Assembly: GCA_965203095.1 (NCBI GenBank)
Contig: OZ241877.1
Span: forward strand, 1,152,001-1,216,000
DNA length: 64,000 nucleotides
From: Bdellovibrionales bacterium
Lineage (GTDB): Bacteria; Bdellovibrionota; Bdellovibrionia; Bdellovibrionales; UBA1609
Reading direction: 5' to 3'
Of this stretch, positions 42,001 to 45,000 are shown piece by piece. The position numbers were made by a program. Numbering within the stretch: position 1 is the stretch's first letter; every line of letters starts with the position of its first letter.

Positions 42001-45000
42001 GCTCGTAATCATTTAAAGAAACTATTTGTGGGAAGGGGCTTTCATAAAGGTTTCGTCCTATGTTGAGCTGAAGATCCTCATTGATAAGCCAGCTGATGGA
42101 GGGGTAGATTTTGAGGGATTTTTTAAAAGACAAAGAGCCTTCATAAGAGTTTCCAGCTAAAAAATGAGCCTGACTTTTAAAACGGTTGCTAAAACGAAAT
42201 TCTCCGCTCAAATGAAGACGACCCTGTAATAGAAAAGCAGTGGACAAGTTATCAGGCCCTAACCAGCCCAAACGGGCACGAACAGAACCTTGCCCATCTC
42301 CCTTAGCTATTACAATTTGTGGCAAAAAAAGCCAAAGCATGAGGAAAAGGCGGGTTTTCCATTGAAAATTAAGCATATTATATCAAATCCCCATTCCATA
42401 ATTGATTTAAAAAGTCTGTCCAAGGCCAAATTTCAATTTTATCCTTTGTGATTCTTTTTTGAGGAACCTGAGAGATAAGAAAATATTTTTTTATCAGTTT
42501 TTCCTCTTTAAGTGCTCTTAAACCTTTAAGGTGCTTATCTTGAATGTCCCTACTGGATTTAATCTCTATAGCCAACTCATTTCCCACAATCAAGTCCACC
42601 TCCTTATGAGATACAGATCGCCAATAAGCCAATTTTAACCTCCTTCTAAAATAGCTTAAGAAAGCCCGTATTTCTAAAATAAGAAAATGCTCAAAAGCTT
42701 TCCCAAACAGCTCGCTTTTGTCTTCAATAAAAGGACGATGGCAAAGGGCATTAGCAATCCCAACATCAAAGAGATAATACTTTGATCGGGAAATAGCTTT
42801 TCGCTTTTTAGTTTTTGTCCAACCGGGAATTTTAAAACCTAAAAGAGTGTCATCTAATATTTGAATATAATTTTTTAATGTGCCAGGGGATACTTGAAGA
42901 TCTTTGGAGAAATTTTCATAATTTATCTCTTGACCATTAGATAAAGCTATCGAATCCAAAAATTCAGCGAAAGCTTGTATATTTCTGGACAAAGCCTCAT
43001 GTTGTATTTCCTCTCTGAGATAAAGGCTAATGTAGGCATTTAGCTCTTCCTTATAATCCGAGCTGTCATAAATTTGAGGCAATCCCCCACGGTTTAAATA
43101 GCGGATCAAATTGAACTTTGGGATCTCCTGCCATGTTAATGGAAAAAACTCCGCTTTCCAGGCCCGGCCAGCTAACAAATTAACTCCCTTTCGCTTTAAC
43201 TTTCTGGAACTGCTACCCATCAATAGGAATCGGAAACTCCGTTTTTCAATAAGCCGGTGGACTTCATCTAATAAGTTAGGGAGTTTTTGTATCTCATCAA
43301 TAATCACAATTTGATTTTTCTGATTTTCCTCTTCTAAAATTTTGGGGTTTTTAATTAAAGATCTATAAGTATTGGCGTCCAACAAATCATACATTTTGGC
43401 TTGAGGAAGAGACTGCTTTACTAAAGTGGTTTTCCCTGTGGAACGAGGGCCGAAAAGAAAAAACGATTTTTTCCTCAATAAAGCCACTAAATCTAACTGC
43501 CTTTTATACATAGATTTCTAATAATAAGCTTTATTTTTATTATTTTCAACATTTATGTTGTGGATTTTTATTATTTTCAACATTTATGTTGTGGATTTTT
43601 ATTATTTTCAACATTTATGTTGTGGATTTTTATTATTCGGCCTTGGAAAAGTCCTTTTGTTTAGAACTCCAGCTTATGTGTCGTCTGAATGTCGTCTGCC
43701 TCCTGCGGAGTAGTCGGCAGGCTGTCTCTTAAAGCCAGTGCGGGTTTGTCGTCTGAATGTCGTCTAAAAAAAGGGAGGATATAGACAGAGATTAGAGGGA
43801 AAAATAGAGGGTTTAGAGCTTAACCCGCCCTAATCCAGCTGTGTTTAATGCTCCAGTTGATTCTTAATCAAAAATATCTTCATAAATGAACCAAATTAAA
43901 TCGCCATTAAAGCAGATCACAGCTCAAAAAAACCAATGGGCTTTTTAGCAAATTCTGTCAACGAAATACTGAACATGGACAGAAATGACTGGTTTTTTAC
44001 AGTAAAAGAGATTAAATGATTGACTCCCATCACTAAAAAGATTAAAAGCACTTGATTAAATGATTTTAGGAGAAAACTGATGAAAAAATCATTATGCATC
44101 CTAACAGTAATGGCCTTTTTTGCCCCCGCACTGGCAGAAGAAAGGCCAACCTCTCTAGAATCCAAATCTATAGAGGGAAAAGTTCAAACCACTACCCCTT
44201 CAAAAAGCAATCTCCATAGCGAAGAGCCTATAGATAAAATCAAAGTGACGGGTTCCCGCATCAACCGCATCGGGACAGAAGGGCCCAGCCCACTTTATAT
44301 TTATTCCCAAGAAGACTTGGAAAATTCTGGCTATAGCTCCGCCGGTGACTTTTTAAGAGACACAACCATATCTCATTTTGGAGTGGGAAGGGAGCAGTCG
44401 GGAAGGAGCACAGCTGGAGTATCCTCTGCTGGCATTAAAGGGGAACAAGCTTTGATCCTTATCAATGGCCTGAGAGTGGTTGAAGACCCTCATGCCAATG
44501 CTGTGGATCTTAATCTCATCCCCTTATTTGCTATAGAAAGAGTAGAGATTTTAAAAGACGGGGCCTCAGCCCTATATGGCTCAGATGCCGTGGGTGGGGT
44601 GATCAACTTTATCACCAAAAAAGATTTTTCTGGAATAGAGCTTCAGGCCCAGGCCAGCCCTACAGCATGGCCTTTGGTTAAGGGAGGTTCTCGCGGGGAT
44701 ATAGCTGTCATAGCAGGGGAGAGTAGCAGAGATTGGTCTTATATCAGCTCTTTTCACCTCCGTTTTCAAGACCAGGTCCACAATGCCGATCGGGCATGGA
44801 CTAAAAAATCTATTTCCCCTATAGGTCCCTACGGCATTTTCACAGTTGGGAGAGGAAAGCCCTATATCGATCCCTCCTGTCCTAATATAACCTCCGATGG
44901 ATGTGAGTTCAATGTAGCTGGTCACTCCAGCAAGCTCCCTCGGCAAAGCCAATTATACGGTTATTTGCAAGCTGATTACAAAATTTTTGGAGAGAATAAG

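What a model noticed while it worked through the whole genome (the two positions that open the first line are those of the whole stretch)
42378..43640. Eleven divergent AAA_14-DUF4143 ATPase-nuclease paralogues, most with private 31-32-bp-spaced direct repeats before the [...]
Eleven full-length genes of the uncharacterised COG1373-type family (AAA_14 ATPase + DUF4143 PD-(D/E)XK-like domain; 22-59% identical) are scattered over the chromosome, and nine have two to four direct repeats, different for each gene, spaced 31-32 bp (21-23 bp in two) within 150 bp upstream of the start. I read the repeats as cognate operator arrays on which each ATPase assembles, so that every paralogue is a self-recognising DNA-binding switch, possibly an addiction or defence module. 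This gives a testable DNA target for a very common family with no known function.
Evidence so far: Family of 11; identities 22-59%. Upstream 260 nt with repeated 9-mers: g01093 at -126,-95,-64,-33 (TRF period 31, 3.4 copies, 100%); g00029 -150,-87,-55; g00674 -78,-46; g00686, g00687 32-bp pairs; g01523 -147,-115; g01163 -105,-82,-59; g00528 -152,-131; g00373 imperfect pair; none in g01161, g01261. Relatives: multi-copy in other Bdellovibrionales (up to 16 matches; 18 of 41 genomes at E<=1e-15); of 25 loci with enough flank, 5 have an exact 10-mer repeated upstream (spacings 31,31,31,32,42) versus 1 of 25 downstream. 'DUF4143' occurs in 4 papers, none functional (listing, call 87).
(Added by a program. 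Inside this text positions count along the whole contig: contig position 1,152,001 is position 1 of the stretch shown here. "Call 12" and the like, gene names such as g00115 and contig names such as C1 are that model's own, and its searches are not shown. The text may have been shortened before it was handed on; [...] marks where a part breaks off. The agent that wrote the report below was given it as the finding of a first reader that could run no searches.)

Follow-up and report, generated by a model that had tools for sequence, protein, structure and literature searches.

The report
Private operators of ATPase-nuclease gene copies
Most of eleven distant copies of a very common but untested ATPase-nuclease gene in this bacterium carry an evenly spaced set of DNA boxes on or beside their own promoter, and where relatives allowed a test the boxes were typical of the gene's lineage rather than of the host, so each protein most likely binds and throttles its own gene, which gives the family a concrete DNA target to test.

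Summary
Confirmed and refined. The genome holds 11 intact AAA_14-wHTH-DUF4143 genes (22-59% identical; all best match the untested defence candidate PDC-S01) plus two 5' fragments. The window gene has 3.4 exact 31-bp units over a sigma70-type promoter just before its ATG. The units are mostly alternating inverted half-sites (31-32-bp period) or, in one subfamily, 22-23-bp direct repeats. Motifs are subfamily-specific, not gene-private; g00528's 21-bp repeat is a dispersed REP. Nine of 11 promoters fit leaderless transcripts. Best reading (0.7): each protein binds its own array and represses itself, like C proteins or AbiEi, in one polypeptide with a latent nuclease. Binding, repression and defence are untested; protein-DNA covariation is only suggestive; no 3' copies or empty sites support transposition. 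This scan reported the same arrangement before in several other genomes; I found no paper describing it.

The parts
42378..43511 (-). g01093: 377-aa AAA_14 + wHTH + DUF4143 (PD-(D/E)XK) protein, PDC-S01 family
   Evidence: catalytic residues
42987..43511 (-). AAA+ ATPase core and lid (residues 1-175): Walker A G21-T28, Walker B D72-E73, G99-S100, G115-R116
42771..42980 (-). Predicted winged helix (residues 178-247): helices 178-190, 198-205, 209-221 (candidate recognition helix) and a basic wing
   Evidence: model pLDDT 94.5; residues 1-258 align to 2qen (Z 15.1, rmsd 3.0, 238 aligned) and 2fna (Z 14.4); the wHTH label is my reading of the secondary structure
42381..42764 (-). PD-(D/E)XK nuclease domain (residues 250-377) with E274, E304-x-D306, E316-x-K318 intact
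   Evidence: PMC3424549 lists DUF4143 as PD-(D/E)XK of unknown function
43533..43637 (-). Operator-like array: 3.4 exact 31-bp units, recently homogenised (74-nt exact run at lag 31)
43588..43615 (.). Distal dyad (centre -90) matching the subfamily palindrome gTTGcgGATTaTcATgAtAATCcgCAAc
43557..43584 (.). Second dyad (centre -59); a degenerate third dyad at 43526-43553 overlaps the -35 and -10 boxes
   Evidence: 31-bp pair score 34.2, next independent site in the genome 18.1
43521..43549 (-). Predicted sigma70 promoter TTGAAA-17-TATTAT ending 9 nt before the ATG (leaderless or near-leaderless mRNA; no Shine-Dalgarno match)
43652..43813 (.). Dispersed genome repeat that is cut off 15 bp before the array; marks the likely 5' edge of the inserted unit, not part of it
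41177..42376 (-). Conserved 399-aa gene without Pfam match, starting 1 nt after the ATPase stop; in 8 of 8 same-genus genomes that have it, a tRNA-Pro and no ATPase lies upstream

Best explanation
Each gene is a self-contained, horizontally moving unit: an operator array, a sigma70 promoter inside or beside it, a mostly leaderless mRNA, and one polypeptide with an Orc1/Cdc6- or STAND-type AAA+ domain, a winged helix and an intact PD-(D/E)XK nuclease. Shown by computation: domain anatomy, intact active sites, phased half-sites (three helical turns apart, or two turns in the g01163 subfamily), motif tied to protein subfamily across phyla, overlap with own promoter, no excess of sites elsewhere in the genome. 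Inferred: the winged helix reads the half-sites; several protomers load on one face of the helix, probably coupled through the nucleotide state of the AAA+ domain; this occludes -35/-10 and keeps a potentially harmful nuclease scarce. Different motifs insulate the paralogues, so eleven can coexist and a newcomer can be expressed on arrival and then shut itself down. Tandem amplification, as in the window gene, homogenises the boxes and would let protein and operator drift together. The end use of the nuclease is the weakest step: most likely anti-phage or anti-plasmid defence on ATP-driven activation (about 0.45 on its own).
For: Held-out motif recovery 71 of 118 versus 2 of 118 downstream; top 31-bp pair in 1.78 Mb is the gene's own array. 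Cross-test on 11 paralogues and 1,207 control genes: motif A picks g01093 (20.8 bits), B picks g01523 and g00674 (25.6, 17.0), C picks g01261 (29.4), none reached by a control; motif E from 7 proteobacterial plasmid genes picks g01163 (26.4 bits, 0 of 1,207). Pooled autocorrelation over 172 relatives peaks only at lags 31 and 32, upstream only; period 31 in 32 of 37 clade-A and 32 in 33 of 35 clade-BCD loci that passed the four-site filter. Half-sites within a locus are alike in direct and inverted pairings (0.53-0.65 and 0.66-0.78) and more than between distant loci (0.43), as for a protein-read consensus. Leaderless-type promoter geometry in 9 of 11 paralogues versus 65 of 847 control genes; 28 of 85 and 41 of 75 relatives versus 0-4 at shifted positions. 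Each motif's best genome hit is its own promoter, with no excess elsewhere over a shuffled genome. Sixteen ATPase and nuclease positions: 15 invariant and one T/S in 11 of 11 paralogues, conserved in at least 170 of 172 relatives. Fold closest to archaeal AAA+-wHTH ATPases, with Orc1/Cdc6-DNA complexes among top Foldseek hits. Covariation with the wHTH, uncorrected: r 0.37, p 0.015 (residues 196-216, clade BCD, 35 pairs) and r 0.34, p 0.022 (176-195, clade A, 36 pairs).
Against: No binding, expression or activity data. The covariation does not survive correction for 16 tests, the two clades peak in different wHTH segments, and in the all-pairs scan nuclease-domain windows rank above the HTH window in clade BCD; linkage alone makes gene and upstream DNA co-inherit. 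Six of 11 paralogues (g00029, g00373, g00528, g00686, g00687, g01161) had too few close relatives for the cross-test; g00687 scored only 8.1 bits with motif C. Motifs from the distant groups A3 and D picked no paralogue. About half of the relatives lack four in-register half-sites. In g01523, g01163 and g00373 the main array lies upstream of, not on, the predicted promoter, and g00373 has no leaderless-type promoter, so simple occlusion cannot be general; activation or looping is possible. Control gene starts are crude first-ATG calls.
Confidence: 0.7

Rival explanations
1. One-gene mobile element: the arrays are transposase-type end sites (as for Tn7 or Mu ends, recalled) on which the ATPase assembles and the fused nuclease cuts to move the gene.
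For: Patchy and solo: no ATPase beside the same neighbour in 8 of 8, 8 of 8 and 7 of 7 same-genus genomes; 2-23 matches per genome in the genus; g01163 and g00373 have no close relative in 150 genomes of the phylum but relatives on plasmids of other phyla; PMC8195603 traces STAND NTPases to Cdc6/Orc-like transposase ATPases (passage); the window unit is sharply bounded.
Against: No second end: own upstream region matches own stop region at 20 bits or more in 8 of 166 relatives versus 1 of 166 for foreign loci, only L262 being a clear operator copy on inspection, and in none of the 11 paralogues. No near-identical full copies in the genome (maximum 59%). Sites sit on the promoter.
Confidence: 0.14
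2. The palindromes act as structure (DNA cruciform or hairpin, or a repeat RNA that restrains the protein as in type III toxin-antitoxin systems), not as duplex binding sites.
For: Some boxes are perfect palindromes with locus-specific arms (g00528 14 of 14, fragment 1286290 14 of 14; L070, L162, L046).
Against: Direct-orientation half-sites are as alike as inverted ones and the spacing is fixed at whole helical turns; the g01163 subfamily has head-to-tail repeats only; the predicted promoter lies at or after the array, so the repeats would not be transcribed, and no terminator separates array and gene in the window.
Confidence: 0.07
3. The boxes are sites for a host transcription factor.
For: Palindromes over a -35 box are typical of host repressors; no binding partner has been shown.
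Against: One genome carries at least four different motifs before paralogues, while one motif is shared across Bdellovibrionota, Desulfobacterota, Bacteroidota and others; no regulon of further sites in the genome.
Confidence: 0.04
4. Neutral slippage repeats in AT-rich promoters that hitch-hike with the gene.
For: The window array is a recent exact amplification; exact runs of 20 nt or more at lag 30-34 occur in only 7 of 172 relatives.
Against: Degenerate palindromic consensus kept at 45-70% protein identity with unrelated flanks; fixed period and register to the ATG (centres near -61, -30, +1 in clade A); 0 of 1,204 other genes have an exact run of 14 nt at those lags versus 4 of 11 paralogues.
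Confidence: 0.03

Closest known systems
PADLOC candidate PDC-S01 (COG1373; Pfam AAA_14 + DUF4143)
   Same: All 11 proteins have a PDC-S01 model as best PADLOC hit; single gene, ATPase fused to PD-(D/E)XK (PMC12988326 passage).
   Different: The passages read give no cis-element, DNA target, regulation or tested activity.
Controller (C) proteins of type II restriction-modification systems (C.PvuII)
   Same: Two pairs of inverted half-boxes overlapping -35/-10, autogenous control, leaderless mRNA, box sequence tied to the recognition helix (PMC2175313 passages); purpose is to pace a nuclease.
   Different: C protein is a small separate HTH protein with a methylase partner; its boxes span 26 bp. 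Here reader, ATPase and nuclease are one chain, half-sites are about 14 bp with a 31-32-bp period, and there is no methylase.
AbiEi / Rv2827c antitoxins of type IV toxin-antitoxin systems
   Same: Negative autoregulation through one or two sets of inverted repeats in the own promoter (PMC7319586 abstract).
   Different: Two-gene systems with a nucleotidyltransferase toxin; no ATPase, no fused nuclease.
Archaeal Orc1/Cdc6 on origin boxes, and archaeal AAA+ ATPases PABY2304 (2qen) and SSO1545 (2fna)
   Same: AAA+ plus winged-helix fold; Orc1 binds repeated boxes next to its own gene (recalled).
   Different: Fused nuclease, many paralogues per genome, no sign of an origin; 2qen and 2fna have no DNA target in the data seen.
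Plasmid iterons with Rep initiators
   Same: 22-23-bp head-to-tail repeats in the g01163 subfamily; Rep proteins also autorepress (recalled).
   Different: Chromosomal genes among housekeeping or defence genes; most subfamilies use inverted half-sites; no Rep domain.

Membership tests
PDC-S01 / COG1373 | AAA_14 and DUF4143 above Pfam cut-offs in one protein | tested here: met
   11 of 11
PDC-S01 / COG1373 | Best PADLOC model is PDC-S01 | tested here: met
   11 of 11, best E 1.5e-44 to 3.7e-152; PADLOC's own system cut-offs were not applied
PDC-S01 / COG1373 | Anti-phage activity | not testable with these tools
   Family is itself an untested candidate
Orc1/Cdc6-STAND clade AAA+ | AAA+ core followed by helical lid and winged helix | tested here: met
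   Residues 1-258 align to 2qen and 2fna (Z 15.1, 14.4), then NLR and Avs5 cores (Z 11.5-12.4)
Classical STAND/Avs receptors | N-terminal effector and C-terminal repeat sensor | tested here: not met
   377 aa, nuclease at the C-terminus, no repeat domain
C-protein-controlled restriction-modification | Paired inverted half-boxes over an own promoter with leaderless start | tested here: met
   As arrangement and by prediction only
C-protein-controlled restriction-modification | Separate small controller gene and cognate methyltransferase | tested here: not met
   No such partner next to the window gene or shared by the paralogues
Type IV toxin-antitoxin (AbiE) | Separate toxin and antitoxin genes | tested here: not met
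   Solo genes with unrelated neighbours
Type III toxin-antitoxin | Order promoter, repeat array, terminator, toxin (recalled) | tested here: not met
   Predicted promoter at the downstream end of the array, no terminator between array and gene in the window
Insertion sequence / transposon | Related repeats at both ends | tested here: not met
   0 of 11 paralogues; one clear case (L262) among 166 relatives
Insertion sequence / transposon | Empty site with target duplication in a relative | tested here: inconclusive
   Same-genus genomes too rearranged at three loci tested; laid contigs gave no joint across the gene
Iteron replicon | Repeats act as replication origin with a Rep initiator | not testable with these tools
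   Only spacing resembles iterons, in one subfamily

The most novel reading that the evidence does not exclude
The family is a class of one-gene, self-addressing elements: the protein assembles on its own operator array, and the fused nuclease, licensed there, nicks or cuts at the array to homogenise the boxes and to mobilise or defend the gene. Array amplification then rewrites specificity quickly, giving a natural library of orthogonal ATP-switched DNA-binding nucleases. Two nuclease-less AAA_16-type ATPase genes of this genome with long upstream arrays would be a second branch of the same design.
Probability: 0.17. Interest if true: 0.85.

Novelty: new variant of a known kind. Interest (0 to 1): 0.62.

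Why it matters
PDC-S01 is reported as the fourth most common defence-type locus across prokaryotes, with about 39,000 detected copies in one survey (PMC12988326 passage), and has no known substrate or regulation in the papers read. A predicted, subfamily-specific DNA site turns it into a testable system: binding, repression, ATP dependence and nuclease activation can be assayed with short oligonucleotides. This genome gives five matched protein-operator pairs in four motif classes, a ready specificity matrix. If binding holds, the family is a large source of orthogonal repressors, and self-repression would explain why expressing such genes from native promoters might hide a defence phenotype.

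Tried and rejected
Unseeded EM motif search collapsed on GC content and was replaced by a symmetric Gibbs model with per-locus background; one of four hold-out folds converged on another register and is included in the counts. First relative scan dropped 30 of 81 loci through a narrow Walker A pattern or short flanks; 12 of 81 remained dropped afterwards and one mis-picked ORF was removed. Searches for close relatives of g01163, g00373, g00528 and g00687 in the phylum returned 0, 0, 3 and 2 other genomes at strict cut-offs; viral contigs gave 0, 0 and 4 loci; four plasmid relatives of g00373 (41-47%) share no visible motif with it, though two have 32-33-bp repeats. Empty-site search failed for lack of synteny. 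Dispersed REP/MITE-like repeats near the genes are not specific: 61 of 150 control regions have them. No RNA holder listed, so expression and start sites are untested. No phage record matches the window gene at DNA level. No solved structure of a family member by sequence. A homodimer prediction could not be run, so the oligomeric state is open. The nuclease domain was not folded and searched alone. Literature: 'DUF4143' 4 papers (passages read in all four), 'PDC-S01' 7 papers, 6 listed (passages read in two), accession search swamped by noise, combined-term searches gave 3, 0 and 1 unrelated papers; none seen describes upstream arrays. Zhang et al. 2016 (NAR 44:3513), which I recall discussing STAND-type ATPase plus restriction-fold nuclease genes as mobile elements, is not held, and supplements of the Payne et al. 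preprint are closed; either may bear on novelty.
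Full report
Setting. The window is contig C1:1152001-1216000 of a 1.8-Mb genome; its closest relatives are labelled Bdellovibrionales.

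The genes. An iterated HMM search found 11 full-length members, with starts at 30098(-) g00029, 420425(+) g00373, 585444(-) g00528, 750056(-) g00674, 768227(-) g00686, 768440(+) g00687, 1195511(-) g01093, 1279889(+) g01161, 1282859(-) g01163, 1393012(+) g01261 and 1687200(-) g01523, plus 5' fragments at 765905 and 1286290. All 11 pass Pfam cut-offs for AAA_14 and DUF4143 and have PDC-S01 as best PADLOC model (the name was first suggested to me by earlier notes). Identities are 22-59%. Walker A, Walker B, the conserved GS and GR pairs, and the nuclease residues E274, E304, D306, E316, K318 are kept in 11 of 11 and in at least 170 of 172 relatives. The AlphaFold model (pLDDT 94.5) shows AAA+ core, lid, a three-helix domain with a basic wing, and the nuclease fold. 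Best structural matches are the archaeal ATPases 2qen (Z 15.1, rmsd 3.0, 238 aligned) and 2fna (Z 14.4), then NLR and Avs5 cores; Foldseek also ranks Orc1/Cdc6-DNA complexes and CARF-nucleases near the top, at low TM-scores.

The repeats are real. The window gene has 3.4 exact 31-bp units at 43533-43637. Scored against 1,208 other genes, 7 of 11 paralogues fall in the top 1.2% for direct repeats; g00373 and g00686 stand out only as inverted repeats; g01161 is weak and g01261 has no direct repeat. One of the seven is spurious: the 21-bp repeat of g00528 belongs to a dispersed REP with 54 genome matches; its own element is a perfect 31-bp palindrome across the promoter.

What the unit is. Eighty relatives of g01093 (45-70% identity, many phyla) gave, without the query, the palindrome gtTgcngATTaTcATgAtAATcngcAac. 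In two rounds of two-fold hold-out on 59 loci, 71 of 118 upstream tests reached 10 bits versus 2 of 118 downstream. Applied to this genome, the best 31-bp pair in 1.78 Mb is g01093's own array (34.2 versus 18.1 for the next independent site). Dyad centres cluster near -61, -30 and +1, so the start codon is often the centre of the last copy. A pool of 183 full-length relatives, 172 after dereplication, shows upstream autocorrelation only at lags 31 and 32. Where four in-register half-sites could be placed (37 of 73 and 35 of 70 loci), the period was 31 in 32 clade-A loci and 32 in 33 clade-BCD loci, and half-sites were alike in direct and in inverted pairings. The g01163 subfamily differs: 7 of 7 proteobacterial plasmid relatives examined (of 168 records hit) have best lag 22 with consensus TTtCAAtTGGtCa, two of them weakly.

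The motif follows the protein, not the host. Motifs were trained on groups defined by protein identity, with all loci of this genome left out, and scored on the 11 paralogues and 1,207 control genes. A (28 loci) picks g01093, 20.8 bits; B (24 loci, TTTACTCatGAGTAAA core) picks g01523 and g00674, 25.6 and 17.0; C (11 loci, TGATAAaTgGTC-GACcAtTTATCA) picks g01261, 29.4 bits, centred on its -35 box; no control gene reaches these scores. E picks g01163, 26.4 bits, 0 of 1,207. Against this: motifs from the distant groups A3 and D picked nothing, g00687 scored only 8.1 with C, and five other paralogues could not be tested. Genome-wide, the best hit of A, B and C is the own promoter, and hits of 15 bits or more number 7, 6 and 1 against 14, 4 and 0 in a shuffled genome: no regulon and no second target set.

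Promoter overlap. A TTG-type -35, 16-18 bp and a -10 ending 4-13 nt before the ATG (8 of 12 matches or better) occurs in 9 of 11 paralogues versus 65 of 847 control genes, and in 28 of 85 and 41 of 75 relatives versus 0-4 at shifted positions; none of the 11 matches the crude Shine-Dalgarno pattern that 246 of 847 controls match. In clade BCD the TTGAC of the dyad centre is itself the -35. In the window the promoter is TTGAAA-17-TATTAT at 43549-43521. In g01523, g01163 and g00373 the main array lies upstream of the promoter. These are predictions; no RNA run was listed.

Does the winged helix read the boxes? In all-pairs scans the window 205-216 (turn and start of the recognition helix) ranked 1 of 92 in clade A and 4 of 92 in clade BCD, where three nuclease-domain windows ranked higher. 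With disjoint pairs the best of eight segments was wHTH in both clades (196-216, r 0.37, p 0.015; 176-195, r 0.34, p 0.022), not significant after 16 tests. This is suggestive only.

Mobility and context. Twenty-seven of 41 related genomes have members, with 2-23 matches in the nine same-genus genomes. At three loci tested, no same-genus genome has the ATPase beside the same neighbour (8 of 8, 8 of 8, 7 of 7), but the flanks are rearranged, so no empty site can be read. The window unit runs from a truncated dispersed repeat to the ATG of a conserved gene that elsewhere follows tRNA-Pro. A second copy of the operator at the stop codon is rare (one clear case among 166 relatives, none here). Context is mixed: g00686 and g00687 flank a CRISPR locus with cas4, cas1, cas2; g00674 neighbours SoFic and a methylase; g01161 and g01163 lie by a methylase fragment and a DDE transposase; g00029 ends 3 nt before a large protein that I read as nuclease-TPR (no PADLOC match); g01093 is 6.4 kb from a type III RM locus; g00373, g00528 and g01523 sit among housekeeping genes. 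No control was computed for this context. Low-depth contigs of run X5 cover the gene with 14 differences in 1,016 nt while neighbouring pieces differ by 6-9%, a weak hint of recent exchange.

Mechanism. Most likely each protein binds its own array and limits its own transcription (0.7). The closest working model is the C-protein switch: paired inverted boxes over -35/-10, a leaderless mRNA, boxes tied to the recognition helix (PMC2175313, passages); AbiEi-type antitoxins use the same logic (PMC7319586, abstract). Here reader, ATP switch and nuclease are one chain. What the nuclease does once activated is not shown; defence is the leading guess from the PDC label (guilt-by-embedding, untested; 10.1101/2024.01.29.577857, passages) and from one report of a Thermus member induced 6.6-fold by a plasmid (PMC4406477, table passage). 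A one-gene transposon is the main rival (0.14); structure-based, host-factor and neutral readings are weak.

Novelty. The protein family is catalogued (PMC3424549, PMC12988326, PMC13356809; passages). The searches showed no paper on upstream arrays; Zhang et al. 2016 and preprint supplements could not be read. This scan has reported the arrangement in other genomes; those notes are leads, and what is added here is a within-genome cross-test with four motif classes. Verdict: real, a new variant of a known kind, interest 0.62.

Noticed in passing
G000 C1:1072327(-) and C1:1319146(-) (L009:2999-4147): The strongest and third-strongest upstream direct repeats among 1,208 control genes precede two related STAND-like ATPases (the second AAA_16/ATPase_2-like by Pfam, below cut-off for ATPase_2 family certainty; no nuclease domain seen): about twenty 20-bp units and seven or more 31-bp units. 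A third homologue (C1:715607-716872) has only short GC-rich repeats further up. Possibly a second family with own-operator arrays.
   Followed up: partly
G000 C1:719349(+) (L010:3050-4066): Rpn/YhgA-like (Transposase_31) gene with three copies of a 16-bp core spaced 31 and 36 bp upstream.
   Followed up: no
G000 C1:765734-766146 versus 768269-768681 (L005): 412-bp direct duplication (3 mismatches) of the g00687 promoter and 5' end, starting inside g00686's palindrome, directly after a CRISPR array whose repeat resembles type V-A (recalled) with cas4, cas1, cas2.
   Followed up: partly
G000 C1:1286290(+) (L012): Truncated family member preceded by a perfect palindromic array with dyads every 11 bp, unlike the 31-32-bp type.
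   Followed up: no
L001:1-2994(-): Protein of over 998 aa starting 3 nt after the g00029 stop; by eye an N-terminal restriction-fold nuclease plus TPRs; no PADLOC match at 1e-8.
   Followed up: partly
window 29953-36008(-): Type III restriction-modification locus with an embedded PDC-S05 gene.
   Followed up: no
window 43652-43813 and 41074-41153: Members of two dispersed repeat families with dozens of genome copies; the first has an internal 19-bp direct repeat 68 bp apart.
   Followed up: partly
L262 (viral contig): Family member with a clear second copy of its operator box about 45 bp after the stop codon.
   Followed up: no
G000 C1:973955 and 970873 regions: Two identical stretches about 3 kb apart, each with one copy resembling the 31-bp unit of C1:1319146.
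   Followed up: no
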